Part shown: positions 5,241 to 50,294 of the stretch, piece after piece
Position numbering within the stretch: position 1 is the first letter of the stretch
Layout: every line of letters starts with the position of its first letter
IMG/VR virus record: IMGVR_UViG_3300047552_000255
Span: 4,138-68,137 of that record
Origin: a virus
DNA length: 64,000 bases
Reading direction: 5' to 3' (one strand)
The notes under the pieces: generated by a model
The model's database searches: none
What the model saw: the letters and a program-made list of their open reading frames with translations, nothing else
Told to the model about the DNA's origin: nothing
Translations under genes and position numbers: made by a program

Positions 5241-8200
5241 TTACCCCAGACACTGCACGAGCGCCTCAAGTTTTTGTATCTTGGACTCGATGCGGCGTAC
5301 CTCCAGCTCGGCGTCCTTGATCTTGATGGTCGAGCCATCCGAGTTCTTCAGCTCCACCTCGATGGGCACCGGGATCGGGGAAATCTCCTGCGTGGCGGCG
5401 ATGGACAGCTTGCCGTCCACATATGCCTGACGCCACTTCTCCTGCTGCTCTGGCTTCAGATCAGCCCACTTACCCTGCTTGGCGGTATCTGCGTAAGTAC
5501 CCCACTGGTTGCCAGCCAGAACGAGCTGACCCTTGCGCTCACTTGCATCCACCCGCGCTTTACGCTCCTCAGGCGTCTCGACCTTCTTGGCCCTAGTGGT
5601 CGCGGGTTTGGCGGGCTTGGCTGGCACGCCTGCTACGCTGCCTGTTATCCGCCCGGTCTCTTGGTCGTTGAAGCCGCCCATTCGGTTGGAGATTGAGCGC
5701 AACTCGCCTTCCAGCAAACCCAGCTTGGAGAGCTTGGTGATCAGTTCTTCGCGGCTAAGCTCATCGTTCATGAAGTCAACGATGGCCCGCTGGCCCGCTA
5801 CGATCTTTTGCGGAAACCCGAGGTCCGCCGGATACTCGTACCGCTGCTTTACTTCGACGTCAGTGGCTTCGGAGCCTTTGTTGACGGCAGGGGTTGGTTT
5901 GCCGACCGGCTTTCCATTTCCTTGTTCGACTGTGCTTCCGCCTTCTGGTTTCGGCTGTGTCGCTGCGCTATCTCCTGCTGGACTTGCTTCAACGACGTTT
6001 GTTGCAGGCTGTCCTGATACGCGTTTAGTGCCGCCAGCATCCGCTTCACTGGCTGTGGATCGCTCGCTCTTGCCTTGAAGGTACCCATCATCAATTCCTA
6101 TTCCGGCCTGCTCAGCCGCACGTTGTTGTTCCTCGAACGGGGCAACATCCACGATACCACGGTCGGCCAAGTTTTTGTAAGCGGCGTACCACAGCAGCTT
6201 GCCCAGATCGTTGAGTTGAGAGAACTCAGCAGTGCCCGAGGAGCGCATGTCGTCCCAGTCGGCAGCAGCTTGGCTCATCACGTCGGGGTCAACGTGGTGC
6301 TTGAGCATCAGACGACGCTGGTCGGGTGTCGCAGCTTGGATGGCCGCAGCCACCTCGTCCATCTGGTTGAACCGCTTTTCGTCAACCGCGTCCTCAACAG
6401 AGTTGGCCTGAGTGGCTTGCACCATCTGCCCGGTGCCGTCCTCGTTGAACTCCATCGCGGTGACGCCGTCGTCCTTGGCCGCGAGGTTGCCCTGCTTGGT
6501 CATCTGCTTGACCGCAGTCATACCGAAGCCACCCATCTCGTTGAGGGCCTTGGTCACGGTCGAGCGGCTCTTCATACCTAGAGCGTCGGCGATCTGCTGG
6601 GCGTTCATGGGCTGGCGGGTAGAGTGACCTTCCTCGTCCAGACCGCGAGCCATGCGCAGGATGTCCCAATACTGCTTCTTCAGCGCCTTGATGCTTCCGT
6701 CTTGCCCGTGAACCAGAATGAGCTGGTCGCTGTGGCGTCCGGTCTTGGCTTCTTGCAGGGCGGTCGTGACCTTTGGGTCCGCGCCTTCCAGATTGTTGAC
6801 GGGAACCAGCCCGCCCTCGGGGTTCAGGATAGAGACCAGCGCCTTGCGGTCGCGGCCTTGGGTGTCCTTGCCGAACACCACCGGGGCGTGGGCTTGTGTT
6901 GCTACTGCACCTTGCCCTGCGTTGCTGGGAACGACTGCGCTGGATACCCCGCTTTGTGCATCAGTTCCAGTTGATACAGGTACGCCACTTGCTGCGGCGG
7001 TATTTGGAGCTGCTGCGCTAGTCTGCGCTGCTCCCGTGTCAGTCGGGGCGTCTTTACCGAGGAGGACATCGGCGGCTTGTTGGAGGTCTTGTACATGCGG
7101 AACGGCAGGTGGCGCAACCGGAGCAGCGGGTGCTGTGGTGGCGGCTTGAGCGGCAGCGGCGTTGTCGGCCACGGCCTGAGTAGTGACTTGCTTGTCTTCG
7201 GCCTTTTGCTTTGCGGCTTTCTCGGCATCTCGCTTGGCTTTCTCGGCGTCACGCTTTGCTTGGGCCTGCGCCTTGTCGAACGCACGCTGGGCTTCTTGCA
7301 TGTCGGAGCGCACAGCAGCAACGCCGGACTTGTCGCCCTCTTGGAGCGCCACGCGGATGCGGGCCGTAGCCTCGTCGTAGTTGTCCTGAGTCAGCACACC
7401 ATTCGCTACGCCGGAGCGCAGGTCTTCGTGCAGCTTGACCAGTTCGGCTGTGACCAGCCGCTTGCCCTTGCCGTCCACCGGGCTTACCTTGCCGTCCTTG
7501 CCGGGAGACAGGAATACGCCTTCAGCGTCGGACTGCTTTTGCTTCCATGCCTGCTCGTTGGCGGCACGCTTCTCTGACTCGGCCTGTGCGGCGGCTGCGG
7601 CAGCTTGTTCCTCGGGTGTCGGAGGGGGAGCTTGCGGAACCGGAGCCGGTGGCGGAATGGTGATAGGCGAGGCGGGCGGAGCCCCAGCGGGTGTGAGGTT
7701 CTGCCCGGTCAAGACGTTTGTAGACGCCCCACCCTCTACGAGCGCAGCGGGGGTGTTGGAGCGACGACCGTGTATGCCGCCGAACGAACCGAGCAGACCC
7801 TCGACCATACCCCCGGCCACGCCAGCGTTAAGGCGTCGAGACGCGGCTTCTTCTGGCGACACACTGCCGTTGTACCCCATCTCCATTTCGTTCTGGAGCA
7901 GTTCACTGGTAGCCCCGGTCGCCGCCTGAGACGCCCCGGACTTGCCCATGCGGGTGAGGAGGTTCCCGCTGAAACCGGTGCCGCGCTTGATACGCCCTAG
8001 CAGCATAGCCTCGGGCAGGGTTTCAGTGAGTCCGTATGGAACGCCACCTAGTAGTGCCGCGCCGCCCCCGTCAGGGTTTCCACCGTCTACCGACTCTTGG
8101 TACAGGGAGCCTACGCCTTGGGCGTAATTCATCGCCGCGCCGCCCATGATGTCGGACGCCATGCCGCGCCCCGCTTGGACGGCAGCTTTCTTGGCAGCGT

Positions 8201-8654
8201 AGCCTTCTGCGGCACCCATTGCACCGCCACCCAGCCACTTGGGGGCGAACGCCAGCCCACGAGACAAGGCTGTCGGTATAGCCACTTCGGGCATCACTGC
8301 ACTGGCGGCTACGGTCCCTGCGATATTGGGAACCTGCTTACCGACTTGATACATCAGCCACGCAGGCATGGAGCCGACGGACTGATCCTCGACACGCTCA
8401 AGGTCCGGGCGACCGTTGATCCGAGACTCGTACTGGTTCTCGTCAGCGCGTTGGTTCAGCCAGTCACGCGCACCTGTGGCCCCAACGGCATCCGACGCAG
8501 CAGCACCGGCTGAGTACATCAGCCCTTGGAAGTCGTCAACCCCGGACGACAAGCCCGCCGCGAGGGCGTTGCGCTTCTGCGGCTCCGGCAGGCGAACCTC
8601 ATGGACGTCGCGCCACGAGTCGCTGCTCGTTACATCTTTCCAGTTTCCTGCCAT
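5241..8654 (-). CDS. Large internal virion (DNA ejection) protein, 1137 aa, with an internal sigma-region-4-like HTH
   Basis: Follows the other ejection genes. Gly/Ala-rich hydrophobic N-terminal region, coiled-coil and low-complexity middle, and the HTH-like segment WDILRMARGLD...MNAQQIADALGMKSRSTVTKAL. Confidence 0.75.
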   Translation of the reverse strand: MAGNWKDVTSSDSWRDVHEVRLPEPQKRNALAAGLSSGVDDFQGLMYSAGAAASDAVGATGARDWLNQRADENQYESRINGRPDLERVEDQSVGSMPAWLMYQVGKQVPNIAGTVAASAVMPEVAIPTALSRGLAFAPKWLGGGAMGAAEGYAAKKAAVQAGRGMASDIMGGAAMNYAQGVGSLYQESVDGGNPDGGGAALLGGVPYGLTETLPEAMLLGRIKRGTGFSGNLLTRMGKSGASQAATGATSELLQNEMEMGYNGSVSPEEAASRRLNAGVAGGMVEGLLGSFGGIHGRRSNTPAALVEGGASTNVLTGQNLTPAGAPPASPITIPPPAPVPQAPPPTPEEQAAAAAAQAESEKRAANEQAWKQKQSDAEGVFLSPGKDGKVSPVDGKGKRLVTAELVKLHEDLRSGVANGVLTQDNYDEATARIRVALQEGDKSGVAAVRSDMQEAQRAFDKAQAQAKRDAEKAKRDAEKAAKQKAEDKQVTTQAVADNAAAAQAATTAPAAPVAPPAVPHVQDLQQAADVLLGKDAPTDTGAAQTSAAAPNTAAASGVPVSTGTDAQSGVSSAVVPSNAGQGAVATQAHAPVVFGKDTQGRDRKALVSILNPEGGLVPVNNLEGADPKVTTALQEAKTGRHSDQLILVHGQDGSIKALKKQYWDILRMARGLDEEGHSTRQPMNAQQIADALGMKSRSTVTKALNEMGGFGMTAVKQMTKQGNLAAKDDGVTAMEFNEDGTGQMVQATQANSVEDAVDEKRFNQMDEVAAAIQAATPDQRRLMLKHHVDPDVMSQAAADWDDMRSSGTAEFSQLNDLGKLLWYAAYKNLADRGIVDVAPFEEQQRAAEQAGIGIDDGYLQGKSERSTASEADAGGTKRVSGQPATNVVEASPAGDSAATQPKPEGGSTVEQGNGKPVGKPTPAVNKGSEATDVEVKQRYEYPADLGFPQKIVAGQRAIVDFMNDELSREELITKLSKLGLLEGELRSISNRMGGFNDQETGRITGSVAGVPAKPAKPATTRAKKVETPEERKARVDASERKGQLVLAGNQWGTYADTAKQGKWADLKPEQQEKWRQAYVDGKLSIAATQEISPIPVPIEVELKNSDGSTIKIKDAELEVRRIESKIQKLEALVQCLG

Positions 8655-8662
8655 GTTAAGCC

Positions 8663-34793: not shown

Positions 34794-34810
34794 GGGGGCG
34801 CAAGCCCCCC
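34794..34810 (+). terminator. GC-rich hairpin after the first early gene
   Basis: GGGGGC-GCAA-GCCCCC; no U-tract, so termination is uncertain. Confidence 0.45.
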
Positions 34811-34859
34811 TCATCGGTATGTGGGTTCACTGCATACCAATGGGTGAAGTGATAAATGT

Positions 34860-35215: not shown

Positions 35216-35222
35216 CCCCATC

Positions 35223-36241: not shown

Positions 36242-36483
36242 TACGAGAGCATCCGGCGCTCATGGTTAGCCGTAGGGCTCCAGTGTGGCGAACAACCCCC
36301 ACTGGTTAGTAGCTGGCCCTTGAAGACCCCACTGGTCAGGTTAGTAAAGCCCTACGGGGCCCAATGCGGGGGATGAACTCCGCGCCTGCGTGTGTATCCA
36401 CGAAACCGAACCCGACCTGCCCGCGTAACAGGCACGTACACCGGGGGCGCGTTAGCCCCTGTCTTTTTTCTCAGGAGAACATC

Positions 36484-36714
36484 ATGGGATATTTCAGCGA
36501 CCTCGATGCCCATCATCAGGACTGGATCAACACATACTTGCTCGACGCAAGCGACGCCGAGGAGTTCGAGTTCGATGTTGAGTGGCTCATCCACTGCAAC
36601 ACGGCACGCATCGAGGGCTTCACCCCACTGACACGCGAGCAGTTCTACGCGGCGGCTCGGGCCGCGCTTGCCAAGATTGATGCGCTATTCCCCACAATGC
36701 GGGCAGCGACCTGA
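36484..36714 (+). CDS. Hypothetical early protein (76 aa)
   Basis: AGGAG RBS; start MGYFSDL. Confidence 0.7.
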   Translation: MGYFSDLDAHHQDWINTYLLDASDAEEFEFDVEWLIHCNTARIEGFTPLTREQFYAAARAALAKIDALFPTMRAAT

Positions 36715-36825
36715 CAAGCTAGGGTAAATACCTAGCTGATTCCACTGAATGTGACGTGTTAGTACGTTATACTTCAGGTTAACCCAACTGACTAACAGGG
36801 CAGTACAGCCCACAAGGAGATCGAC

Positions 36826-38922: not shown

Positions 38923-38944
38923 TAACCAACAAAGGAGAGACCTT

Positions 38945-40033: not shown

Positions 40034-40198
40034 CCAGAGGGTGCATAACGATGCGAGCGAGACAGTGGGTGCATCTGCTTATTGCTCGTGGGCGCTCGGC
40101 CCCTCTGGTGGTGTGTACTTCTGCCGACGTCCCCTCCTTTACCCTGCGCCGGGCAGGGAATGCACAACCCGGCACCCCTAACATTTTTGGAGATTGAC

Positions 40199-41857
40199 AT
40201 GAAGATCGTATATCTGCTCTGGTACAGCGACGGGAAAGACAAATGGGTCGAAGCTGTCCACGCCAAGGAAGACGAAGCGTTCGCCCACATGCGGATGCTC
40301 AAGTCGTCCAGCGACAACGCAATCAAGTACCACTACTGGATTCAAGAGAAGGGGGTCATATGAACGAACCGAAGGTGCCACGCGGCTACACAGCCGAAGA
40401 ACTGGAGCGGGACAACCCGCACAACCAGTGGATGTATGAAGGCCGGGGCCGTGACCCCGTGCCTGAGAGCGCCGACGAGTGCGAGTTCGGCGACATGGAA
40501 TATCAATGGCGATTGTGGGATGCAGGACTATGAAGAAAGAAACAAGTGCGTTGGCTAACGAGTTAGCCGTCATGAAGAAGAAGGCGACGCGGGTCAACAG
40601 GTTCGCCAAGGACTTGGCTGTGCTGCCCGTGGAGTCCAACCTCGCACCGAAAGAGATGCGCCGAGCGGGTGGCTACGTGCCGCGAGCGCGCAAGAAGAAC
40701 GAGGCGCTGCCGATGGAGCACAACACGCTGTGGAACCCGGACACGTACCGCACCGGTATGGGGGACACGCCGCAAGCAGTGCGACCCGGCGCTATGGACT
40801 TCATGAAGTGTAAGAGCAAGGGGATCGGATGATTCACCGGCTGATCCTCTACGTGCTGCTGATTGTGGTCGTGGCTAACTCTGGCTTCATCGCCGGGTAC
40901 GCGAGCAAGAAGCAGGAGACCGAGAAAGAAGCTCGCTGCATTAACAGTGCATGCGAAGGTAAGTGCAAGACGAAGTTTGTTCGACACCAAGGATGTGAAA
41001 AATGAATGCAATGACTAACGCAATGACTGAAGCCGGTATGAAGCTGCCCACCGTGAAGTTCCGTATCTGGCACTGGCTCAAGGATCACCCTGAGAAGACC
41101 GCCGAGGACATCAAGAAGGCGCTGGGTCTGAACTACCTGCCCTACGAGGTGCTGCATGAGATGACTAAGGCTGACACCCTCAAGGTGTATGGCGACGTGA
41201 GCCGCAAGACGTCCATCCACGGACTGCACCCCAAGATCAAGCGTTACAGCGTGACCAACGCGCAGGAGTACGAGCCCCCACTGCGCAAGAAGCGCACGAC
41301 CAAGAAGGTCAAGACTATCGCGACGCAACGCGTGTTCGACTCAGCCATGCGTGTCATCGAAGCCAAGGCCGCACCGCGCATCGAGGTGGCACCAGCGCCA
41401 GCACCGGGTCTCACTGAGGCGGAGAAGTTCGCAGCGTTCCTTGAGTACAAGGCCCTGATGAAGGAGATGAAGAAATGATCAAGGAAGAAATCGAAACCCT
41501 GCGCGACTTGGAGCAGGACATCATCGCAGCCATCAGCGCAGACCTTGAGACGGGTTCGCACAACTCGAACAATGTAGCGCACGCGACGTTCGCCGCACGT
41601 TACCCCAGCCTGATGGGCGCGGTTGCTGCACTTGGCGCGTGGATCGACAAACAGGAGGACTTGGCATGAAGGCACTCACCGAGATATGGCGTAACGCGTT
41701 CACACCCCCCACAGCCAAGGAGCTGGCATGCCGGGAACTAGCCGACGCGCAGCGCATGCTGCTGCACTACCAGTCACATCAGGAGTTCTGCACCGCGATG
41801 GTTCAGTATGAGAGCGACCGCATCGCACGCTTGCAGCACTACCTGTCCAGCAACTAA
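40199..41857 (+). CDS. Run of small early genes (40199..40363, 40360..40533, 40530..40832, 40829..41005, 41002..41478 possible wHTH, 41475..41669, 41666..41857)
   Basis: Chain of ATGA-coupled ORFs. Confidence 0.7.
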
Positions 41858-41872
41858 CTACTAGGAGGCGCG

Positions 41873-42238
41873 ATGAAGACATCCGAACTGATAGGCCCCG
41901 CCCTTGACTGGGCGGTGGCGAAGTGTGAAGGGGTGCAGATTGGGCAACCGGCTGACCGCACATTTGAGTCTGAGTTCGCACTGATGCACGGGGAAGGCGA
42001 CATGAACTACTCAACCGACTGGGCCCAAGGTGGCCCGATCATTGAGCGTGAGGTAATCGCCACGTACTTGCGGCAGACGAACACACGCGGAGACCAAGTG
42101 TGGAACGCACAAGCTGGCGGCTGGGCGTTTAGTAGCGGACTAACTCTTACCGGCCCCACACCACTGATCGCAGCCATGCGCTGCTATGTGGCGTCCAAGT
42201 TGGGCGATGAGATTGACGTGCCGAAGGAGTTGCTATGA
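41873..42238 (+). CDS. NinX/DUF2591-like protein
   Basis: MKTSEL.G.ALDWAVAK.EG, YSTDWAQGGPIIERE and GPTPLIAAMRCYVASKLG. Confidence 0.85.
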   Translation: MKTSELIGPALDWAVAKCEGVQIGQPADRTFESEFALMHGEGDMNYSTDWAQGGPIIEREVIATYLRQTNTRGDQVWNAQAGGWAFSSGLTLTGPTPLIAAMRCYVASKLGDEIDVPKELL

Positions 42239-42522
42239 CAGACCTCGAAATAAACAAAGCCCTCGCGCTTGCGATTGGGTGGAAAGAGTTGGACATTTAT
42301 GACGATACGGTTGCCGTGTGGTACGGGGCTGGCATCTATGCTAACTGGCGCATCTTCGACTACCGCGACTGGGACGTGATCGGGCCGATTGCTGCTCGGT
42401 ATGACTGCTTTCCATACCAGTCTCAGGACGGGAAATGGGTAACCGATCAGTTTTGTCTTAAATACTTTGACACCCCGCAGAAGGCCATTGCTATGGCGGT
42501 GATTCAGGGAGCGAAGCGATGA
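42235..42522 (+). CDS. NinX-like protein (second paralogue)
   Basis: EIN..LA.AIGW...FDY..W..IGPI...DTPQ.AI..AVI. Confidence 0.6.
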   Translation: MTDLEINKALALAIGWKELDIYDDTVAVWYGAGIYANWRIFDYRDWDVIGPIAARYDCFPYQSQDGKWVTDQFCLKYFDTPQKAIAMAVIQGAKR

Positions 42523-42622
42523 ACACACTACTTGAATGGATGAGCGATCCTTCTCGCGTCTTCAACACAGTCTCTGTGTTTTTGGCGGGCGTTGTTGTGG
42601 GGATGCTGCTGGTGGAGTTGAC

Positions 42623-45511
42623 ATGAACGAACAGATCATTGCATGGGCGCGTGAAGCCGGTATCAACAACTCGCGCAACGGTGTGTTTTTCCAGTGCAAC
42701 TTGAATGACCTTGAACGCTTCGCAGCACTGGTAGCCGAGGCCGCTGCTCTTAAAGAGCGAGAGGCTTGTGCGAAGGTGTGTGAGACGTACGACGGATCGT
42801 GGTACGCGTACAGGAAAGGCGCTCAAGAGTGCGCAGCAGCCATACGCAACAGGGGGACAGCATGACATTTGAAGAATGGTGGAGCGATGCCATCTGGGGC
42901 AACGAAGACTTTAAGCGGTGCTGCGAAATAGCGTGGAACGCTGCTGTGGAATCAGAGCGAGAGGCAATAGCTAAGTGGTTTGAAGACTACGCAGATGCGC
43001 CGTACTTGGCAGCGCAGGTACGCAACAGGGGGACAGCATGACACCAACAAACGAACTGCGCTTTGTGGAGCGCGAAGTATTCGGTGACGACAAGTGGGAG
43101 CGCAAAACAATCCGCGTCTTGCAGCAGAAGTGGACAAACAATGCGCCACGATGGGATGTTGAAAAACAGATGATTGTGCCCGACGAACAATGGCGCGATG
43201 TGCCGCTTGAGAAGGAGGAAACATGAGCAAGATTCTTGAACTGGCTGATGCGTATGCCTGCACATACAAACCATTCGGAGAACCCAATGAATGCCGCGCA
43301 GACCTAGCTGCTGCTGTGGCTGCGATGGAGAAAGAGCTTGACGTGCTATCGAAACACGCTGGGTTGCTGGAGAAAGAGAACGAGGCGCTGACAGGGGAAA
43401 GGGACTTTGCCACACAAAACTGCGACCTGTATTTCAATGATGCGTTGACACTCCGCGCAGAGAACGAGCGGCTGAAGGACACGCTGCAATTCGTGGAGCG
43501 TTGGGCCGTACATCACGGAACAAAACCACACATGACGGCAGAGCAGGCACTTAGCTGCATTCAGCACCACCCTGCAATAACCGCCATCACCAAGAGCTAT
43601 GCTGACGGCAAGGTGCCTGATACCCACAATCCCTACGCAGAGGTAGAGCGGCTGACAGCACAGCTAGACAACGCGCAAAAGTGGATAGCCGCCACGGGAA
43701 CTGGTGTCGAACGTGACCGACTCATGGCAGAGAACGAGCGGCTGCGGGATCTTGCGAGGGAAGCGGCTAACGCGATGGAAGATTTGCGTGTTGGTGGAAC
43801 CGCTCCTGAAATCATCAAGGACATTCGCGCAGTTCTTGCGCAATCAGCACTGAATAGACGCTGCCCATTGTGCAACTACCAGCATGGACACGCTATAGGG
43901 TGCAAAAACAATCCGGTCGACATTGCATTAAGCGAAGACGCTGCCAGAGCAGCACTGGGGGAAGGTAAATGAAATCCACACAACTACTCTTGATTGTCGG
44001 GGCTGTGTATGCGGCTCCACACATTCACCCGAATGTATCGGTTGCGTTCGGACTCTTGTTGATGGTACTGGCGATTGTTATAGAGGTGCTGACATGATTG
44101 AAGCACACGCCGCAATTTGGGGAGAGAAGACATGAACATCATGGAACTGGCTGATACATACGCAGCGCTCTACAAAATTGAGACAGGGCATCAGACAATA
44201 CGTGCCGCACTCGCTGCTGCTATTGATGCGCTGGAGAAAGAGCATGTCCAGCGACTGCTACGCATTGAGAAGGAAGTCGATGCGCTTGTCGCAGAGAACG
44301 AGCGGCTGCGGGGGGCGTTGGCGAAAGACATCGAAGAGTGGGGAAGCTATGCGTCTGAGTATCTACACAAAAAGCACGACCTACAAGCCGCCATCGACAC
44401 TACCCGTACAAAACGGGAGCCAAAGACATGAATTGCTCAAAGAAAACCTGCAACTGCAAAGAGGAACCGAAGTCACGGTGCATCTGGTGGGACGAACCTG
44501 AACAAGAGACAGCACTGATGGACGCATGGATTGCTGGCTACTACCACGCCGGTTACACGCATGACCGCGCTTACGCCGAAAAGCTGGCTAGGGAATACGT
44601 TGACGCTGCCCGTGCAGCACTGGAGAAGCCATGACTGAACCTATCGCGTACTACGACTTCCAAGAGCGCGGGTTCTACTGGGCAAACAATGTTGTCCACG
44701 GCCCTGTGCCTGTGACCGTGAAGGTTGATCCCATGCCGCTATATGCAGCACCAGTGACCAAGGTGGAGCCGGTGGAGCAGACACGCAGCCAAAAGTTGAC
44801 CGCCGCTGGATTTACACGCAGGAAAAAAGGGTTCGGCAAGGAAGAAGATGACGAACACCGCTGCGGTGGCTCCGGATGTGATGGAAACTGCTGTGTGCCG
44901 GTGACCAAGGTGGAGCTTGTGGCGTGGGAATTCAGATACAAAGAATCGAACAAGTACACCGCGAACTATGGTGAGTGGGGCGAGTGGGAGCGTCTTGTTC
45001 CGCGCAATCCATTGGAAACAATAGAAGGCCGCGTAGCTGAAATGCGTCGGTACATAGCTGATGGGTACAACTATGAACTTCGCGCTCTCTACACCCACCC
45101 AGCACTAACAGCCAAAGGTTCATTCGCATCGCACACAGCGGAAGGGCAAGGCACGCTACACGCAGCAAACCTAAGACAAGCCAACCGAATCGCGGAACAG
45201 GACGCTGTGCTGCGGATGGCGCTTGACGTGCTTGAGGACAACAGGGACTGTGTGGACGAACGAAGTGCGCCACAGTACATGGAAGCACGGTACGACCCAA
45301 CCATCGCCGCTATCAAGGAGCAACTGAAATGAAACTCAAATACTTTTTCCCGCCGCTTGTGTTCATCCTGTCGTGGGCGTTCTGCACACTGATCTACTGG
45401 GCCGGTGGTAATGACTTTGAACGTGGCGGAGCGTTGCAGGGGTACTTGGTGTACTCCATGCTGGTGTCTATCGCTATGACTGTTCCTGTGGTTGGGATGG
45501 TGCTGACATGA
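42623..45511 (+). CDS. Mosaic run of small accessory genes (42623..42865, 42862..43041, 43038..43226, 43223..43972 Ea22-like, 44132..44431, 44428..44634, 44631..45332, 45329..45511)
   Basis: ATGA-coupled ORFs with shared modules (EREA.AK, AENERL, PVTKVE, ARAAL) and lower GC. Confidence 0.7.
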
Positions 45512-45825
45512 AAGTCAACTGCATGATCTTCTGCAAGCTGATCAAGCTGCTGCACGAGGGCACGCGCTCCTGCAAGGAGCTGGCCGACGAGACGGGGCTG
45601 CATGTGCTGACCGTGTACCAGTACACCAAAGAGATGCACCGCCAAGGCCTTGTCCACATCGCCCTGTGGGAAATGAACGACTACGGACGCCCGCAGATCA
45701 AGATTTATATGTGGGGGCCGGGCAAGGACGCCAAGCGGGCGACTATCTCACGCGCTGAGACATCGCGCCGGTACAAAGAGCGCAAGAAACTGATGGCCGT
45801 CGTCAACTCAATGGTGACCGCATGA
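45508..45825 (+). CDS. Winged-HTH DNA-binding protein
   Basis: SCKELADETGLH..TVY.Y...MH..GLVHI..W. Confidence 0.75.
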   Translation: MKVNCMIFCKLIKLLHEGTRSCKELADETGLHVLTVYQYTKEMHRQGLVHIALWEMNDYGRPQIKIYMWGPGKDAKRATISRAETSRRYKERKKLMAVVNSMVTA

Positions 45826-46010
45826 GGTGCCCCGAGTGCAACGCGCCAGCTAACGTGTTAGAGACACGGGACTCACCCAACGGACGAACCCGGCGTCGGT
45901 ACGAATGTTTCAACTACCACAGGTTTACTACCTATGAGCAACCCGCCAAAGAAAGACAAACCAAACTTCGCCGCGTGGAGTCACACCAACCTAGCGAACT
46001 TCGCCAGTGA
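45822..46010 (+). CDS. NrdR-N-like Zn-ribbon protein
   Basis: MRCPEC....VLETR......RRRYEC.N.HRFTTYE. Confidence 0.75.
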   Translation: MRCPECNAPANVLETRDSPNGRTRRRYECFNYHRFTTYEQPAKERQTKLRRVESHQPSELRQ

Positions 46011-46122
46011 CGCGTACGACAGACTGCAAGAGCAGGAGTTCGCGCTTGAACAGATACGCCTTGACCTCAAGGACGCGATGAAGCTGGTGCGCCAGCAATT
46101 TAACAAGGACGACTGGAAATGA
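45934..46122 (+). CDS. Hypothetical protein (62 aa)
   Basis: PNFAAWS..NL..FA motif; coupled to the polymerase start. Confidence 0.65.
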   Translation: MSNPPKKDKPNFAAWSHTNLANFASDAYDRLQEQEFALEQIRLDLKDAMKLVRQQFNKDDWK

Positions 46123-48026
46123 AAATCGCAACACTGGACTTCGAGACATTCTGGAGTCAAGACCACAGCCTGACCAAGATGCTGCCGCTGTCTTACGTCA
46201 TGCACCCCGAGACGGAAATCATCTCCTGCTCCATCAAGATGGACGACGCCGACACGGACGTTTATTTCGGCGAGGCGCGAGTGCGGAGCGCACTGGAACA
46301 GATCGACTGGTCTGACGCTATGGCACTGGGCCACAACATGTCGGCCTTCGACGCAATGATTCTGGCGTGGCGCTTCGGCATCCGCCCCAAGATGTGGGGC
46401 TGCACACTGGCAATGGCCCGGCCCATTCACGCGATCACCGTGGGCAACTCGCTGGCTAAGCTGGTGCAGCACTACGCGCTGGGTGTGAAGGACAACGCCG
46501 CGCTGCTCAACACCAAGGGCAAGCACTTGAAGGACTTCACGACCGACGAGCTGCGCGACATGGCCCGCTACAACAAGGCCGACACCGATCAGTGCTATGC
46601 CCTGTTCAAGAAGCTGAAGCCCCACTACACCGCTGCCGAGATGTGGCAGATCGACGCGACCATCCGCATGCTGACCGAGCCTGCGTTCAACGTGGACACC
46701 GAGCTGCTGCGAGACGCACTGGTCAAGGAGCGCAACCGCAAGACGACCGCACTACTGCAACTGGCAGAGCTGCTGGACATGGACATCGACGGCGACACCA
46801 GCAAGGTCGAAGACGAGGTGCGCGTGCAACTCCTGTCTGCTGCCAAGTTCAGCGACATATTGACCCAGCGCAACGTGCCCATCCCGATGAAGCCCAGCCC
46901 CACCAACCCTGACAAGGAGGTGCCCGCGCTTGCGAAGACCGACCAAGAGTTCCTCGACTTGCAGGAGAGCGACGACACCGTGGTAGCTGCTGCCGCCCGA
47001 GCCCGCCTTGCTGTGAAGTCCACACTGCTGGAGACGCGCATCGAAGCGTTCCTCGAAGCCAGTGCAGCAACTCAGGGGCGACTGCCTGTGACGCTCAACT
47101 ACTGCGGAGCCACGACCACCGGGCGCTGGAGCGGCTGGGCATACAACCCCCAGAACCTGCCGCGTGTTAGTGGCAAGCTGTCTGACGCACTGCGCAACTG
47201 CATGGTGGCCCCCGCCGGGCACGACGTTGTTGTGGCTGACCTTTCTGGCATCGAGTTGCGGGTCAATATGTTTCTGTGGAAAGTCCCGTATGCGATGGAG
47301 CTGTTCAAGGCGCCGCCCGACAAAGCTGACCTGTACCGCTACTTCGCAGCGCACGACCTGTACAACATCGAGGAGTCAGAAGTCAGTAAGGTTCAGCGTC
47401 AGGTGGGCAAGGTCGCTCACCTTGGACTGGGCTTCGGTGCTGGCGGTGCTACGTTCCAGAAGGTTGCCAAGATGATGGGCGGCGTGGACATGACGCTCGA
47501 CGAGGCCAAGGACGTGGTGTTCAAGTACCGCGACGCGCACGTTGAGATCGCCCGAGGCTGGCGCACCTGCCACGACTCGCTCATGGACATCTACGAAGGC
47601 AACGAGCGGGCTATCGACCCGTGGGGTCTGTGCATAACCTGTGAGCACGGCATCCGCCTACCAAGCGGGCGCATCATCCGCTACCCCAAGCTGCACATGG
47701 AGTCCGATACCAAGGGCAACAACGAGTGGTGGTACGGCGAGGGGCGTCACCGAGCACGCATTTATGCCGGGAAGGTTACAGAAAACATGGTTCAGGCACT
47801 GGCGCGGGACGCGATGGCGGACTACACGCTTCAGTTCTTCATGGAGACTGGCTACCGCCCTGCCCTGCTGGTTCATGACGAGTGGGTCGGCGTGCTGCGG
47901 GACTCCAAGGCGCAAGACGGGCTGGACACCTTGCAGAAGATCATGCGTACCCCGCTCAAGTGGTGGCCCGAGCTGGTGACGTGGTCGGAAGGTGACATCG
48001 CGCCCAGTTATGGTGCGGCCAAGTGA
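46119..48026 (+). CDS. Family A DNA polymerase with 3'-5' exonuclease
   Basis: ExoI LDFET, ExoII GHNMSAFD, TTGRWSG..N.QNLPR, motif A ADLSGIELRV, motif B RQVGKVAHLGLGFG and motif C VHDE. Confidence 0.95.
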   Translation: MKIATLDFETFWSQDHSLTKMLPLSYVMHPETEIISCSIKMDDADTDVYFGEARVRSALEQIDWSDAMALGHNMSAFDAMILAWRFGIRPKMWGCTLAMARPIHAITVGNSLAKLVQHYALGVKDNAALLNTKGKHLKDFTTDELRDMARYNKADTDQCYALFKKLKPHYTAAEMWQIDATIRMLTEPAFNVDTELLRDALVKERNRKTTALLQLAELLDMDIDGDTSKVEDEVRVQLLSAAKFSDILTQRNVPIPMKPSPTNPDKEVPALAKTDQEFLDLQESDDTVVAAAARARLAVKSTLLETRIEAFLEASAATQGRLPVTLNYCGATTTGRWSGWAYNPQNLPRVSGKLSDALRNCMVAPAGHDVVVADLSGIELRVNMFLWKVPYAMELFKAPPDKADLYRYFAAHDLYNIEESEVSKVQRQVGKVAHLGLGFGAGGATFQKVAKMMGGVDMTLDEAKDVVFKYRDAHVEIARGWRTCHDSLMDIYEGNERAIDPWGLCITCEHGIRLPSGRIIRYPKLHMESDTKGNNEWWYGEGRHRARIYAGKVTENMVQALARDAMADYTLQFFMETGYRPALLVHDEWVGVLRDSKAQDGLDTLQKIMRTPLKWWPELVTWSEGDIAPSYGAAK

Positions 48027-48130
48027 CCTCTGATCCGCACGCTTTGTAAAGATGTGCCCTCATTCGTACATTCCCACTGGAAAGTGAAGGATAAAGGTGT
48101 AAAGTAATATACGAGCTAACGGAGTAGTCA

Positions 48131-48781
48131 ATGGATGAACAAACCAAAGCAGACCTGATAACAGCAGCCAACCTGCTGATCAAAGCACCTAACGCGCACA
48201 GTCTATTTCAGACCATGCTGGACACAGCACCACTGATGGCCCGGCACAAGGAGTTGCGCCTGACCGGGGATGCTGCGGCGCTCAATCCGCTGGCGCTACT
48301 CAAGGTAGCTCAACCCGATGTGTACGACGGGGTCATCGAGCTGGTGGAGCGCAAGCGAGCCGAGGCCGGGTACGAACCACTGGAGACGGCACAGGACGAC
48401 AAGTTCGACAAGTCAGCCTACATGCAACTGTTCATGGAGCAGAAGCGACTGCGCCAGCGCAGGGCGGCGGACGTCGAGAACTTACAGCGTGCTGACCGGG
48501 ACAAACTGGTGGGCCGGGCCCGACTCGACTTCATGCAGCGACAGTCAGCTCTCTGGAAGACAGAGCGAGACGCGTTCCTACAACGAGCCCGAGAAGCTGC
48601 GGCACCGAGGCGACTGAAGAAGGACGACATCGCGCTGGTACTGGAGACGTTCTGGAAGAAGGTTGACGAGCGGCTCGACGCACTGGAAGACGCAGCCCGT
48701 AGTGGTAGACACAGCGGCAGCAGAGGTGCTGCATCGCTGGCGGAACTCGAAGCAGTTCTGCGCCACGATCCTTACAAATAA
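48131..48781 (+). CDS. Hypothetical protein (216 aa), moron-like
   Basis: Own AT-rich upstream region and GGAG RBS; FDK..YM..FM..KR.R motif. Confidence 0.7.
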   Translation: MDEQTKADLITAANLLIKAPNAHSLFQTMLDTAPLMARHKELRLTGDAAALNPLALLKVAQPDVYDGVIELVERKRAEAGYEPLETAQDDKFDKSAYMQLFMEQKRLRQRRAADVENLQRADRDKLVGRARLDFMQRQSALWKTERDAFLQRAREAAAPRRLKKDDIALVLETFWKKVDERLDALEDAARSGRHSGSRGAASLAELEAVLRHDPYK

Positions 48782-48812
48782 AAAAAAACGCCCCGCCGGT
48801 TAAGGCGAGGCG
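48781..48812 (-). terminator. Intrinsic terminator oriented on the minus strand
   Basis: Minus strand reads CGCCTCGCC-TTAACC-GGCGGGGCG-TTTTTTTT. Confidence 0.7.
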
Positions 48813-48932
48813 AATCCCAACTAACAAAGGATGACCGGGAGAAACCAAACAACCGATCACGAATAGTCTATCACACCTCGGGTCGGTGCTAACACGTTAA
48901 CGAAATACCGTGCGATATGGCACAATAACCCC

Positions 48933-49607
48933 ATGACAAAAGGAATCCTACCGTGGTCTTACAGCAGCTTGACTGCCTTCGAGACATGCCCACGACGCTT
49001 CAAGCTAACCCGCATCACCAAAGAAGTGGTGGAGGCGCAGACTGAGGCCACACTGCATGGCAACGAAGTGCACAAGGCACTGGAGAACCACCTCAACGGT
49101 GACAAGCACCTGCCAGACAAGTACGCGGACTATCTGCCTCTGGTGGAGCGCGTTAAAGCCACGCCCGGCAAGCGGTTAGTCGAGTACAAGTTCGCACTAA
49201 CGCAGTCGTTCAAGCCCACCACGTTCTTCGCAAAGGATGCTTGGGTGCGCGGAGTGATCGACGTTGGTGTGGTGCAGCCGACGCACGCCATCGTGCTGGA
49301 CTGGAAGACGGGCAAGCCCAAGGACGACCACGACCAGCTCAAGTTGTTCGCAGCTACTGCGTTCGCCACTCACCCGTTCGTTGAGACGGTGAAGACAGGC
49401 TACGTCTGGCTGGCGCACAACAAGATCGACTCGAAAGAATTTACCAAGGACGACGTCGCTGGAATCTGGCAGGAGTTCCTGCCCAGAGTGACGAGACTGA
49501 CTAAGGCAGCAGAGAAGGACAACTTCCCGCCGAAGCCATCGGGGCTGTGCACCAAGTGGTGCCCGGTGACCAAAGATCAATGTGAGTTTTCAGGAAGGAT
49601 TAAGTGA
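48933..49607 (+). CDS. PD-(D/E)XK (Cas4/RecB-like) exonuclease
   Basis: WSYSSL..F..CP, G..VH.ALE, RG.ID, DWKTGK, QL..FA and C.KWCP. Confidence 0.88.
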   Translation: MTKGILPWSYSSLTAFETCPRRFKLTRITKEVVEAQTEATLHGNEVHKALENHLNGDKHLPDKYADYLPLVERVKATPGKRLVEYKFALTQSFKPTTFFAKDAWVRGVIDVGVVQPTHAIVLDWKTGKPKDDHDQLKLFAATAFATHPFVETVKTGYVWLAHNKIDSKEFTKDDVAGIWQEFLPRVTRLTKAAEKDNFPPKPSGLCTKWCPVTKDQCEFSGRIK

Positions 49608-49780
49608 TGTTTCCACTAGCATCCATGACACACGAGGAGCTGATTTTGTTTTTGCAGACACGCGGCAACATGACCGATGCCGAAGCCACGCTGCTGGATC
49701 GCCTGATCATGGCGATGGATGAGGTCGAAGCCCTGTCCAAGCAGGTGCGCGATCAGTCTGACTTGTTGCTGAGCTGCTGA
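49607..49780 (+). CDS. Hypothetical protein (57 aa), not in the ORF track
   Basis: TGATG-coupled ORF MFPLASMTHEELIL... Confidence 0.55.
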   Translation: MFPLASMTHEELILFLQTRGNMTDAEATLLDRLIMAMDEVEALSKQVRDQSDLLLSC

Positions 49781-49782
49781 TC

Positions 49783-50064
49783 ATGGGCATGACACCAGAA
49801 GGCAAGGTCAAGGCCGCAGTCAAGAAGTACCTCAAGGAGCGTGCAGTCTGGTACTGCATGCCGATGGGCACGGGCTTCGGCTCGTCCGGGGTGCCTGACT
49901 TCCTGTGCTGCAAGAACGGTCTCTTTATCGCCATCGAGACCAAGGCACCGGGCAAGCGCGGCAACACGTCGGTGTTGCAACGCCAACAGATCGACAGCAT
50001 CCACTTGGCAGGCGGCATCGCAGTCGTCATTGACGACGTTGAACAACTCAGAGGAATCGTATGA
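49783..50064 (+). CDS. VRR-NUC domain nuclease
   Basis: TPEGKVK..V..YL, G.SGVPD and F.AIE.KAPG.....LQ. Confidence 0.88.
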   Translation: MGMTPEGKVKAAVKKYLKERAVWYCMPMGTGFGSSGVPDFLCCKNGLFIAIETKAPGKRGNTSVLQRQQIDSIHLAGGIAVVIDDVEQLRGIV

Positions 50065-50279
50065 CAGCAAGATCAAGACAGGTCGGCGGCGCTCACTACG
50101 CCAAGCACAGCATCCAGCCGTGGGATGCAATGGAGCAGTGGATGTCCAACGAAGAGTTCGCGGGCTTCCTGCGCGGCAACGCGATCAAGTACCTCGCACG
50201 CTGCAAAGACAAGGGCGGCGTCGAGGATGTGAAGAAGGCCCAGCACTACATCGAGAAGCTGCTGGAAATTTTAGGCTAA
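50061..50279 (+). CDS. DUF3310 (T7 gp1.7-like) protein
   Basis: QVGG.HY...IQPWD...GN.IKY..R...KGG.ED..KA.HY. Confidence 0.88.
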   Translation: MTARSRQVGGAHYAKHSIQPWDAMEQWMSNEEFAGFLRGNAIKYLARCKDKGGVEDVKKAQHYIEKLLEILG

Positions 50280-50294
50280 CTACTAGGAGCTGCC

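What the first reader, a model, noticed from the sequence alone, without database searches (positions are those of the whole stretch)
8047..50288. Strand-polarised ACTACTAGG nonamer, eight copies, even inside genes
Seen in sequence: ACTACTAGG at 35550, 35564, 36901, 38551, 39901, 41857 and 50279 on the + strand, and at 8047-8055 on the - strand. Every copy is co-oriented with local transcription. Inside CDSs it forces codons rare for this genome (ACT ACT AGG; CTA CTA GG), and at 41857 and 50279 it merges with the AGGAG RBS. A rough base-composition estimate gives well under one expected copy, and CTAG is normally avoided in Proteobacteria. Inference: a dispersed functional site resembling mycobacteriophage stoperators, an RNA-binding or antitermination box, or a nicking/Chi-like signal. 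It is distinct from the GTTAG motif.
Basis: partly seen in the sequence, partly recalled or inferred. Interest (0 to 1): 0.72.

Follow-up and report, generated by a model that had tools for sequence, protein, structure and literature searches.

The report
Private strand-specific DNA word in phage
This uncultured freshwater phage writes one exact nine-letter DNA word eight times along its genome, its relatives each do the same with different words, and the layout looks most like the programmed single-strand nick sites of a few known phages, whose purpose is still unknown.

Summary
ACTACTAGG occurs 8 times, exactly where stated. About 0.1 copies are expected, and it is the most enriched word in the 68-kb phage record. 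All 8 copies lie on the sense strand. Seven lie in the early arm, six of them in its first 8 kb. Copies sit in two reading frames and between genes, so the signal is not a protein motif.

The word is rare in 401 Burkholderiales genomes, so it is not a host Chi- or KOPS-type word.

The new result concerns the relatives. Each related phage contig carries its own exact 9-12-mer with the same layout, for example GGAACGGTAAA, AGCACTGGTCA, GCAGCACTCA, and GCGCACTCA in the cultured Rhizobium phage RHph_TM3_14A. In 8 genomes, 43 of 43 early-arm copies are sense. Late-arm copies split 4 sense to 4 antisense, which argues for a signal read from DNA rather than from RNA.

My best reading (0.35) is programmed nick sites like those of phage tf, phiKMV and T5. 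A small conserved HNH-like nuclease (50295-50588) is only a weak candidate enzyme. The stoperator idea is a live rival (0.2). A primase-polymerase start word (0.12) and an RNA signal (0.08) are less likely. No nick was shown. This scan has noted comparable strand-specific words in other phage groups.

The parts
8047..8055 (-). Copy of ACTACTAGG. It is the only one in the late arm. It lies sense, in frame A CTA CTA GG, inside the 1137-aa virion (ejection-type) protein gene 5241-8654.
35550..35558 (+). First copy of a tandem pair, 1.46 kb from the start of the early arm. It lies 9 nt after the GTG of the 89-aa ORF 35541-35810, which has no family match.
35564..35572 (+). Second copy of the tandem pair, 5 nt after the first.
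36901..36909 (+). Copy in codons 26-28 (T T R) of the 698-aa amidoligase-domain gene 36826-38922. It is about 120 nt downstream of a promoter-like ACGTGTTAG...TATACT site at 36754-36775.
38551..38559 (+). Copy (T T R) in the same gene, in a stretch that does not align with homologues.
39901..39909 (+). Copy (L L G frame) near the 3' end of the 419-aa ORF 38774-40033. I confirmed homologues in relatives but found no family name.
41857..41865 (+). Intergenic copy. Its first A is the last base of the TAA stop of ORF 41639-41857. AGGAGG follows, and the ATG of the NinX-family gene 41873-42238 starts 7 nt after the word.
50279..50287 (+). Intergenic copy. Its first A is the last base of the TAA stop of the DUF3310 gene 50061-50279. 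AGGAG follows, and the ATG of the HNH-like gene starts 7 nt after the word.
50295..50588 (+). 97-aa HNH/beta-beta-alpha-Me-like nuclease gene. It is a weak candidate for the enzyme that reads the word.
34087..58867 (+). Early/replication arm, all genes on the + strand. It holds 7 of the 8 copies, 6 of them in its first 7.8 kb.

Best explanation
ACTACTAGG is a phage-private recognition word. It is read from the DNA, one strand at a time, by a phage-encoded factor. The most likely reading is that each copy marks a programmed single-strand interruption (nick) in the sense, non-template strand of packaged DNA. Such nicks are known at the 9-mer TACTRTGMC of Pseudomonas phage tf, and in phiKMV-like and T5-like phages.

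Shown: the word, its strand bias, its layout, the equivalent words of relatives, and its rarity in host-order genomes.

Inferred: that the sites are nicked; that the sense strand is used in the early arm because a break there would not stop RNA polymerase on freshly injected DNA; and that the small HNH-like nuclease (50295-50588) may be the enzyme. The biological purpose of such nicks is unknown even in the model phages.
For: (1) Enzyme-like exactness. There are 8 exact copies and only 3 one-mismatch sites, against 4.4 expected for the two together. Every TACTAG in the record lies inside the word. The flanks are not conserved. Copies use two reading frames and intergenic DNA.

(2) Same design in relatives, with other words.
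- G001:C121 (portal 70% identical): GGAACGGTAAA, 5+1 copies. All 6 copies in a 3.2-Mb MAG lie on the phage contig.
- G006: AGCACTGGTCA, 5+1.
- G009: GCAGCACTCA, 6+1.
- G014 (partial contig): GAACGGTAA, 4 copies.
- G005: ATGATAGGT, 6 copies.
- G007: AGTCATAAGC, 5 copies.
- Cultured Rhizobium phage RHph_TM3_14A: GCGCACTCA, 9 copies on one strand, none on the other, and 2 one-mismatch sites.
- Tally: early arm 43 sense and 0 antisense in 8 of 8 genomes; late arm 4 sense and 4 antisense.
- The first site lies 1.0-2.8 kb from the arm start in 7 of the 8 genomes (62 bp in the partial contig G014). Most gaps are about 1-2 kb (range 0.45-3.9 kb), and the last gap is usually 4-8 kb.

(3) Words are written into variable protein segments by substitution, not insertion. 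In C121 the word codes R-N-G-K in a DNA polymerase loop where 7 homologues differ.

(4) Match to the tf paper (PMC3517423, abstract and passages read). That phage has a 9-mer with 11 exact and 3 variant sites. All lie on the top strand. Only 3 further one-substitution sites exist, and they are not nicked. Relatives use a slightly different word.

(5) Not a host word. It occurs 0-6 times per genome in 5 Burkholderiales genomes that hold related prophages, against 11-42 for the reversed control. Of 401 genomes of that order, 234 have any copy, typically 0-3 per strand against 10-40 for the control.

(6) Hint of a physical discontinuity. In one other freshwater metagenome (X5, a 97-98% identical strain), 3 of the 8 listed contigs end 0, 1 and 3 nt after copies of the word, at 50287, 36910 and 41868. 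The post-hoc binomial P is about 2e-4 over the 64 listed ends.

(7) Candidate enzyme. The 97-aa protein keeps D-x-H...GG...N-L...N-R. It has weak HNH hits in PHROGs and Pfam. One cluster member is named HNH endonuclease by NCBI. Its best PDB rows, by sequence and by fold, are HNH nucleases, though none is significant. Among the first 12 full contigs, 8 of 8 with a word have the gene at E<1e-10 and 0 of 4 without a word do. Small phage HNH enzymes are known strand-specific nickases (abstracts of PMC3592412, PMC4027164 and PMC8845596 in the listing).
Against: No nick was observed. Only assembled contigs were available, and they cannot show molecule ends. The contig-end coincidence is post hoc, comes from one run, and rests on 32 listed pieces with 407 unlisted. 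Strain branching at mosaic junctions could also produce it.

In tf-type phages all sites lie on one strand. Here 1 of 8 copies is on the other strand, and the same holds in C121, G006 and G009.

The HNH link did not replicate in the second sample:
- G003 has the gene but no word.
- G004 has the gene and a word (TGATAGGTG, 7 copies), but the copies are antisense and in tandem pairs.
- G002 lacks the gene but has a two-strand word.
- That sample alone gives 1 of 2 against 1 of 4, P 0.6. Combined with the first it gives 9 of 10 against 1 of 8, P 0.002, but kin are not independent.

HNH identity does not cleanly follow word similarity. G009 and TM3_14A have near-identical words and 55% HNH identity, the highest of their shared proteins. 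G004 and G005 share a core word but have only 48% HNH identity, lower than G004 with G003 at 62%.

The window's HNH has many 70-84% identical metagenomic relatives, which fits poorly with a private specificity. The 3 closest that I could fetch lie on contigs of 4-9 kb and have no copy. One (L184) has the variant ACTACTACG at the same spot.

Characterised small HNH nickases read 3-7 bp (abstract of PMC8845596), not 9-12.
Confidence: 0.35

Rival explanations
1. Stoperator-like sites. A monomeric phage regulator, either an immunity repressor or an early-to-middle switch protein, binds the asymmetric word on duplex DNA. It blocks or modulates transcription that runs through the early arm. Each phage has its own word because the protein and its sites co-evolve, as immunity specificities do.
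For: The phage is temperate in kind. It has a tyrosine integrase (51072-52130), and a PrtN/excisionase-type gene directly upstream of it (50585-50842). All early genes, including the integrase and an HTH_3 protein (55454-55738), run one way, as in Cluster A mycobacteriophages.

All 8 window copies are oriented with transcription, as are 43 of 43 early-arm copies in 8 genomes. Sites start 1-3 kb downstream of the arm start. In the window they follow two promoter-like sites (35165 and 36754). In C121 one copy lies about 30 nt upstream of the -10 of the conserved promoter-like site.

Passages of PMC6550527 describe 13-14-bp asymmetric sites, bound by a monomer, oriented with transcription, whose consensus differs between phage groups and co-varies with the repressor.
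Against: There are only 8 sites, with 1 in the late arm, against 20-30 spread through the genome in Cluster A phages.

In relatives, 4 of 8 late-arm copies are antisense. All 9 copies of RHph_TM3_14A are on one strand whatever the gene direction.

No copy overlaps a sigma-70-like promoter in the window. A separate ACGTGTTAG/CTAACACGT motif sits at the promoter-like sites and looks like the ordinary operator set.

Six of the 8 copies lie inside ORFs. The total lack of degenerate copies is unusual for operators.

tblastn with the window's integrase finds a homologue in only 3 of the 8 word-bearing full contigs (G000, C121, G009; G014 is partial and not counted) and in none of G005, G006, G007, G011 and TM3_14A. 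This was one query at E 1e-3, so divergent or serine integrases could be missed.

No repressor was identified.
Confidence: 0.2
2. Start words for the phage primase-polymerase. The 1035-aa AEP primase-polymerase/helicase (55760-58867) begins DNA synthesis at this template word. It would do so on the strand that becomes single-stranded, either the lagging-strand template or the non-template strand exposed by early transcription.
For: The gene is present. It matches phrog_2478 'DNA polymerase/primase', phrog_8841 'DNA primase/helicase' and DUF927. The words are strand-specific and spaced about 1-2 kb apart in the first part of the arm. The orientation fits a lagging-strand template for forks leaving the divergent region near 34 kb.

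Sequence-specific initiation by AEP enzymes (pRN1 ORF904, phage NrS-1) is recalled from memory, not checked in a paper here.
Against: G009 and TM3_14A have near-identical words, but their primase-polymerases are only 21% identical, the lowest of 9 shared proteins. Homologues of the enzyme also occur in contigs without a word (G008, G012, G013). Sites cover only the first third of one arm, too few to prime a 63-kb genome. Late-arm copies are on either strand.
Confidence: 0.12
3. RNA-level signal in early transcripts. This could be a cleavage site for a phage endoribonuclease (compare T4 RegB at GGAG), a binding site for a translational regulator, or an antitermination box.
For: All window copies would be in mRNA. 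Four of the 8 continue as AGGAG, and two overlap the ribosome-binding site of the next gene. In a distant relative (G011) a 17-mer containing ACTAC..TAGG lies in intergenic DNA, mostly 9-17 nt upstream of 8 start codons.
Against: Exact late-arm copies in relatives are antisense in 4 of 8 cases, and far too many to be chance, so they would not be transcribed in the sense direction. No common secondary structure surrounds the 7 loci folded. There is no Rfam match in the window. The complement of the word is not found in a complete Burkholderiaceae chromosome, G002 (0 forward, 0 reverse), so pairing with a host rRNA or tRNA is unlikely for that host type. No RNA run was available to test this.
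Confidence: 0.08
4. Host-directed polar word, of the Chi type for RecBCD/AddAB or the KOPS type, collected by the phage to protect or orient its DNA.
For: It is a short, strand-polarised, over-represented word. Its orientation is symmetric about the divergent region, as expected for a replication-related polarity. Lambdoid phages rich in Chi are described (PMC12315714, abstract only, in the listing).
Against: The word is rare in host-order genomes. It occurs 0-6 times per genome in 5 genomes with related prophages. It is absent from 167 of 401 Burkholderiales genomes and far below the reversed control in nearly all the rest. C121's word occurs nowhere else in its 3.2-Mb MAG. Each relative uses a different word. 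The phage also encodes a Mu Gam-like protein (53777-54154), and Gam proteins are known, from recall, to shield DNA ends.
Confidence: 0.02

Closest known systems
Localized single-strand interruptions of Pseudomonas putida phage tf and LUZ24-like phages (consensus 5'-TACT/RTGMC-3'); also phiKMV-like (CGACNNNNNCCTA/CTCCGG) and T5-like phages
   Same: An asymmetric word of about 9 nt is kept exact, with very few one-substitution variants anywhere in the genome. There are 8-14 copies with strong strand bias. Copies lie inside genes as well as between them. Related phages use a shifted word. The function is unknown. (PMC3517423, abstract and passages; the window and relatives.) The window's word also contains TACTA, the first five letters of the tf consensus; this may be coincidence.
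   Different: No nick has been shown here. One copy per genome is on the other strand in the window and in three relatives. The words differ completely between relatives rather than by one letter. The phages are unrelated to tf, T5 and phiKMV: the nearest cultured relatives by portal are Rhizobium phage RHph_TM3_14A (37%) and HMO-2011-type phages (about 25%). The window phage is temperate in kind.
Stoperators of Cluster A mycobacteriophages (L5, Bxb1), bound by a monomeric immunity repressor
   Same: Short asymmetric sites without dyad symmetry, oriented with transcription, dispersed beyond promoters, with a phage-specific consensus. The genome plan is similar: integrase, DNA polymerase and regulators all lie in one long one-way arm (PMC6550527 passages).
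   Different: The word is 9 bp rather than 13-14 bp. There are 8 sites rather than 20-30. Nearly all lie in one arm and mostly inside genes. There is no promoter-overlapping copy in the window. Orientation in the late arms of relatives is mixed. No repressor is identified.
Small phage HNH nicking endonucleases (N.phiGamma and relatives)
   Same: The 97-aa protein downstream of copy 50279 has the HNH-type core. Such small phage enzymes are strand- and site-specific nickases (abstracts of PMC3592412 and PMC4027164 in the listing).
   Different: Known examples read 3-7 bp and sit next to the terminase, for cos cleavage. This one lies in the replication module. It has no CxxC zinc site in the alignment. 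Its link to the word is statistical and did not replicate.

Membership tests
Phage localized-nick (single-strand interruption) sites, tf/phiKMV/T5 type | Conserved asymmetric consensus at every site, with few near-variants elsewhere in the genome | tested here: met
   8 exact copies and 3 one-mismatch sites, against a chance mean of 4.4 for the two together. All TACTAG hexamers lie inside the word.
Phage localized-nick (single-strand interruption) sites, tf/phiKMV/T5 type | All sites on one DNA strand of the genome | tested here: not met
   Window: 7 on + and 1 on -. Met in RHph_TM3_14A (9 and 0), G005 and G007. Not met in C121, G006 and G009, each with 1 copy on the other strand.
Phage localized-nick (single-strand interruption) sites, tf/phiKMV/T5 type | Physical nick with ligatable 3'-OH/5'-P ends in virion DNA | not testable with these tools
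   Only assembled contigs were served. There is an indirect hint: 3 listed contigs of run X5 end 0-3 nt after the word (P about 2e-4, post hoc).
Phage localized-nick (single-strand interruption) sites, tf/phiKMV/T5 type | Phage-encoded nicking enzyme | tested here: inconclusive
   An HNH-like 97-aa gene is present. Its association with words is 8 of 8 against 0 of 4 in the first sample and 1 of 2 against 1 of 4 in the second. No activity was tested.
Stoperators (Cluster A mycobacteriophage type) | 20-30 asymmetric 13-14-bp sites spread through both arms | tested here: not met
   The word is 9 bp with 8 copies, 7 of them in one arm. The definition is taken from PMC6550527 passages.
Stoperators (Cluster A mycobacteriophage type) | [quoted passage not shown] | tested here: inconclusive
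   Window: 8 of 8. Relatives: early arm 43 of 43, but late arm only 4 of 8. G004 has 7 copies antisense.
Stoperators (Cluster A mycobacteriophage type) | A cognate monomeric immunity repressor, and a copy acting as operator in the early lytic promoter | tested here: inconclusive
   No repressor was identified. The HTH proteins at 45508-45825 and 55454-55738 are candidates only. No copy overlaps a promoter-like site in the window. C121 has one copy about 30 nt upstream of a conserved -10.
Host Chi / KOPS-type polar words | High density of the word in the host chromosome | tested here: not met
   0-6 copies per genome in 5 genomes with related prophages. Of 401 Burkholderiales genomes, 167 have none and nearly all the rest are far below the reversed control. 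The true host is not known.
Single-subunit phage RNA polymerase promoters (T7 type) | A phage RNA polymerase gene, and a promoter of about 20 bp conserved beyond the core, placed upstream of genes | tested here: not met
   No RNA polymerase family turned up among the about 50 window ORFs scanned across six family-library scans. The flanks of the word are not conserved. Six of 8 copies lie inside ORFs. In the two intergenic copies the word overlaps the ribosome-binding site, so a start downstream would lose it. Not every ORF was scanned.
Template recognition words of AEP primase-polymerases | An AEP primase-polymerase is encoded, and its specificity follows the word | tested here: inconclusive
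   The gene is present. G009 and TM3_14A share a near-identical word, but their enzymes are only 21% identical. Homologues also occur in wordless contigs.

The most novel reading that the evidence does not exclude
A whole lineage of aquatic and soil podovirus-like phages carries a previously undescribed self-marking system. The lineage includes the Burkholderiales phages related to this window, Rhizobium phage RHph_TM3_14A, and probably marine HMO-2011-type relatives. Each phage writes a private, exact 9-12-nt word on one strand. It places 4-7 copies at roughly 1-2-kb steps through the first 8-16 kb of the early arm, often with one more in the giant ejected-protein gene. A fast-evolving phage factor reads the word from the DNA. 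The factor need not be a nickase. It could be the ejected polyvalent protein acting on incoming DNA, marking it as self or opening it for early transcription or replication.
Probability: 0.25. Interest if true: 0.8.

Novelty: new variant of a known kind. Interest (0 to 1): 0.6.

Why it matters
Site-specific nicks in phage DNA have been known since T5, yet their purpose is still called enigmatic (PMC3517423). They are documented in only three phage groups. If these words are nick sites, they add a large, environmentally widespread and partly temperate lineage. That lineage includes a cultured member, Rhizobium phage RHph_TM3_14A with 9 copies of GCGCACTCA on one strand, in which the question can be tested at the bench.

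The comparative pattern is new information whichever reader turns out to be right. Every relative has a different word, but the placement is the same: 43 of 43 early-arm copies on the sense strand. This constrains the function to something tied to the first-expressed part of the genome. Such words are also easy to compute and could serve as a lineage marker. If the word is instead a regulator site, it would extend stoperator-like control beyond actinophages.

Tried and rejected
Nearest relatives. megablast and blastn of the early region against 50,697 phage records gave no match. A scan of viral contigs for relatives of the 698-aa protein found none. The 23-nt tandem-pair stretch is not in viral contigs. 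The pattern word-N(1-30)-word gave 83 viral loci. None is related to this phage (only one weak tail-protein hit), and most are coding tandem repeats.

These are portal homologues at 84-85% identity (P0002, P0003) and HNH homologues at 80-84% on 20-55-kb contigs. As a result, the test of conservation at synonymous positions in close relatives could not be done properly.

Sequencing runs. No RNA holder was listed. All runs are kept as contigs. X3 holds the same strain, and one 365-nt contig spans the copy at 39901 without change. Parts without cover say nothing.

A cluster of 4 copies in 11 kb of a 36%-GC genome (G250) proved to lie in repeated coding sequence with no homology to the phage.

The literature search for the word itself returned 82 papers. 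The 20 listed are on unrelated topics, and none describes a phage signal. A search for 'HMO-2011' plus 'nicks' gave 1 unrelated paper. A T5 preprint searched for the genome nickase gave nothing relevant. From these three searches I found no published description of these words. Supplements were closed. Fig. S2 of the tf paper and Fig. S1 of PMC6550527 (stoperator counts and orientation) were not seen and may refine the comparisons.

Other blanks:
- An Atlas look-up of the 1137-aa protein gave only unnamed viral clusters.
- The AlphaFold model of the HNH-like protein is mediocre (pLDDT 69.7) and Foldseek gave no significant match.
- There are no Rfam families or tRNAs in the window.
- There is no common fold around the sites.
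- A wider co-variation analysis over 72 sequences was too noisy to use.

Not every private word in the relatives is the same kind of thing. G011's 17-mer is intergenic and promoter-like. G002's word is on both strands. G004's copies are in tandem pairs on the antisense strand. GTTTAAAC palindromes dominate some marine loci.

G008, G010, G012, G013, G415, G417 and G418 show no clear word. G416_C19 duplicates G010. G419, G420 and G421 are partial and were left out of the counts.

Full report
**What is there.** The window is 64,000 of the 68,137 bases of a single virus record. Seven copies are on the + strand and one is on the - strand. Shuffles that keep dinucleotide content give a mean of 0.12 copies and never more than 1. 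Markov models of order 1 to 4 expect 0.03-0.05 copies per strand. It is the most enriched 9-mer in the record. The 4,137 bases outside the window add no copy.

The word has sharp edges. All eight TACTAG hexamers of the record lie inside it. Allowing one mismatch adds only 3 sites, no more than chance. The flanks do not align.

The copies lie in two reading frames: T-T-R three times and L-L-G three times. Two more lie in intergenic spacers, where the first A closes a TAA stop, AGGAG follows, and the next ATG starts 7 nt after the word. In coding copies the word forces the rare codons CTA (4.2% of Leu) and AGG (4.7% of Arg). ACT is merely the least used Thr codon, at 15%. So the signal is selected at the nucleotide level, not through a peptide.

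**The genome around it.** The record is a tailed phage. It has a portal, a large terminase, tail proteins and large virion proteins on the - strand. A single one-way + strand arm (34087-58867) holds small unknown ORFs and an amidoligase-domain protein. After these come DNA polymerase A, a PD-(D/E)XK nuclease, a VRR-NUC-like protein and a DUF3310 protein. The arm then holds a small HNH-like protein, a PrtN/excisionase-type protein, a tyrosine integrase and an SNF2-type helicase. It ends with a Gam-like protein, an HTH_3 protein and a 1035-aa primase-polymerase/helicase.

Seven copies lie in this arm, six of them within its first 7.8 kb. The eighth lies, again in the sense direction, in the 1137-aa virion protein gene.

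The last 500 bases of the record repeat window 628-1126 at 96.6% identity, a period of 62,874 bases.

The phage comes from freshwater metagenomes. Contigs with related portals sit in MAGs and genomes mostly labelled Burkholderiales. The nearest cultured phages are distant: Rhizobium phage RHph_TM3_14A at 37% portal identity, and HMO-2011-type phages at about 25%.

**Not a host word.** In five genomes that hold related prophages or phage contigs the word occurs 0-6 times, while its reversed control occurs 11-42 times per strand. In 401 genomes of the same order, 167 have no copy. Nearly all the others have 0-3 per strand against 10-40 for the control. That tally includes three unpublished genomes, on which no claim rests. 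A local cluster in one low-GC genome proved to be repeated coding sequence unrelated to the phage. A host Chi- or KOPS-type reading is therefore excluded for the genomes searched.

**The relatives.** The exact word is absent from all 59 related loci first fetched. I then fetched whole contigs and ranked k-mers by enrichment. Most relatives turned out to have a word of their own with the same layout.
- G001:C121, the closest full genome (portal 70%), carries GGAACGGTAAA. Five copies are sense in the early arm and one is sense in the 2660-aa virion protein gene. These are the only six copies in the 3.2-Mb MAG.
- G006 carries AGCACTGGTCA, 5+1 copies.
- G009 carries GCAGCACTCA, 5 in the early arm and 2 in the late arm.
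- G014, a partial contig, carries GAACGGTAA, 4 copies. It has the same core as C121 but at different places.
- G005 carries ATGATAGGT, 6 copies.
- G007 carries AGTCATAAGC, 4+1 copies.
- The cultured Rhizobium phage RHph_TM3_14A carries GCGCACTCA nine times, all on one strand, with no reverse copy and only two one-mismatch sites.

Over these eight genomes the early arm holds 43 sense and 0 antisense copies. Which strand carries the word is an independent yes/no per genome, and it is sense in 8 of 8. The late arm holds 4 sense and 4 antisense copies.

The first site lies 1.0-2.8 kb from the start of the arm in seven of the eight genomes. The exception is the partial contig G014, at 62 bp. Gaps range from 0.45 to 3.9 kb, most of them about 1-2 kb. 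The last gap is 4-8 kb in five of the eight genomes.

Positions are not conserved between relatives. In C121's DNA polymerase the word is written into a variable loop by substitution, not insertion.

Four contigs (G008, G010, G012, G013) showed no clear word. A second batch of ten sequences was mixed. G004 has TGATAGGTG 7 times, but antisense and in pairs. G002 has a two-strand word. G003, G415, G417 and G418 have none. One sequence duplicates G010, and three are partial.

Marine viral contigs that share the small HNH gene also show one-strand words, such as ATGACCGACC with 5-6 copies, mostly outside long ORFs. So the phenomenon is broad, but probably not uniform.

**What the pattern says about mechanism.** Late-arm copies are far too many to be chance, and half are antisense. 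A signal that must be in mRNA does not explain them. This points to the DNA.

Within the early arm the strand is always the sense strand, so the process is directional there. The exactness, the sharp edges and the scarcity of near-variants look like an enzyme's recognition site rather than a set of operators.

The closest documented case is phage tf. It has a 9-mer, TACTRTGMC, with 11 exact and 3 variant copies, all on the top strand. All 14 are nicked. Three further one-substitution sites are not nicked, and related phages use a slightly different word (PMC3517423, abstract and passages). That paper also cites phiKMV-like and T5-like consensus sequences, and states that the function of the nicks is unknown.

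One hint of a physical discontinuity exists. In another freshwater metagenome that holds a 97-98% identical strain, three of the eight listed contigs end 0, 1 and 3 nt after copies of the word. The chance of this is about 2e-4 for the 64 listed ends. The window was chosen after seeing the data, 407 pieces were not shown, and strain branching at module boundaries could give the same result.

**A candidate reader.** The gene that starts 7 nt after copy 50279 encodes a 97-aa protein with the core D-x-H...GG...N-L...N-R. It has weak HNH matches in PHROGs and Pfam. A relative is named HNH endonuclease by NCBI. Its best PDB rows, by sequence and by fold, are almost all HNH nucleases, but none is significant, and the model is mediocre.

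With a profile of this family, 8 of 8 word-bearing full contigs have the gene and 0 of 4 wordless ones do. The second batch did not repeat this, at 1 of 2 against 1 of 4. The combined 9 of 10 against 1 of 8 (P 0.002) ignores relatedness.

HNH identity follows word similarity in one pair. G009 and TM3_14A reach 55%, the highest of their shared proteins. It does not in another pair: G004 and G005 reach only 48%, below G004 and G003 at 62%, and G003 has no word.

The window's HNH also has many 70-84% identical relatives. The three closest I could fetch are on short contigs without the word. One (L184) has ACTACTACG at the same place upstream of the gene. I therefore keep the HNH only as a weak candidate.

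**Rivals.**
- **Stoperator-like control** fits the one-way, temperate-type genome plan and the early-arm orientation. The Cluster A literature describes just such asymmetric, transcription-oriented, phage-specific sites (PMC6550527 passages). Against it: there are few sites, almost all in one arm. None overlaps a promoter in the window. A different motif occupies the promoter-like sites. Orientation is mixed in the late arms of relatives. Five word-bearing relatives have no detectable homologue of the window's integrase.
- **A primase-polymerase start word** fits the strand logic. However, the enzyme is only 21% identical between two phages with nearly the same word, and it also occurs in wordless contigs.
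- **A T7-type promoter** is ruled out. No RNA polymerase family was found among the ORFs scanned, and the flanks are not conserved.
- **RNA-level readings** are disfavoured for the reason given above. There is also no common fold around the sites and no Rfam match.

**Verdict.** It is one instance of a lineage-wide habit of keeping a private, exact, strand-specific word in the first part of the early arm.

I commit to programmed nick sites as the most likely mechanism, at 0.35. A regulator-binding (stoperator-like) site stands at 0.2, a primase-polymerase start word at 0.12, an RNA signal at 0.08, and a host Chi-type word at 0.02. The rest is left for something not yet described.

I found no description of these words in three literature searches. 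Earlier notes of this scan report comparable strand-specific words in other phage groups. Those notes are unchecked leads, not support.

The decisive experiments are simple and can be done on the cultured Rhizobium phage.

Noticed in passing
window 35165-35200, 36754-36775, 45853, 54049 (+); 11913, 25853, 48889 (reverse form): A second motif family, ACGTGTTAG / CTAACACGT. At 35165 and 36754 it is followed by GTTAGCCT or GTTATACT and looks like promoter plus operator. C121 keeps the same arrangement (ACGTGTAAGCACGTTATACT) before its amidoligase gene.
   Followed up: partly
window 628-1126 versus the last 500 bases of the record: The record's end repeats this stretch at 96.6% identity, a period of 62,874 bases. 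The rest of the expected 5.2-kb overlap is not alike at the DNA level, so the assembly closes on a different allele or cassette.
   Followed up: partly
window 41873-42238: The NinX-family gene right after copy 41857 is a widely shared module. Contig depth there is 23-89 in three other metagenomes, against 0-10 in most other bins. Many foreign contigs begin to match at 41871-41885.
   Followed up: no
window 36826-40033; C121 51105-53692; G014 17706-21417; L004: The amidoligase-domain protein and the following 419-aa protein form a pair that is kept in several relatives at 25-43% identity. No other early-arm proteins upstream of the DNA polymerase are as widely kept.
   Followed up: partly
L184 3956-3964: A viral contig whose HNH-like protein is 72% identical to the window's has ACTACTACG, one letter off the word. 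It lies 9 nt before the HNH start, the same place as copy 50279. There is no other copy in its 7.2 kb.
   Followed up: partly
G011:C1 (L084-L086) 21105-36665: A 17-mer, TCAATCACTACCGTAGGG, occurs 8 times on one strand in intergenic DNA, mostly 9-17 nt upstream of start codons. It is promoter- or leader-like. It contains ACTAC..TAGG, which resembles the window's word with two extra letters.
   Followed up: no
L013 5361-5500; L033 7526-7650; L016 2437-3190; L021 659-950: Classical iteron-like arrays, with tandem or inverted 9-13-mers at periods of 15-24 bp, lie upstream of the terminase side in several relatives. They are probably replication origins or operator clusters. No such array was seen in the window.
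   Followed up: no
L190, L206, L217, L243 (ATGACCGACC); L233 (GCACCGACC); L213, L229, L249, L259 (GTTTAAAC); L261 (GTTTAAATG): Low-GC viral contigs that share the HNH-like gene have their own strongly enriched words. Some are one-strand words lying outside long ORFs, often preceded by ..AT as if after a -10 box. Others are the palindrome GTTTAAAC on both strands.
   Followed up: partly
G004 (L299 plus L274) and G005:C28: Two relatives share the core TGATAGGT but in opposite orientation relative to their early genes. In G004 it forms tandem pairs, one of them 8 nt upstream of a start codon.
   Followed up: partly
window 12000-50000: Cumulative GC skew rises steadily from about 11 kb to about 50 kb, across both the late and early arms. 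AT skew follows the transcribed strand instead, with A over T on the sense strand in both arms.
   Followed up: no
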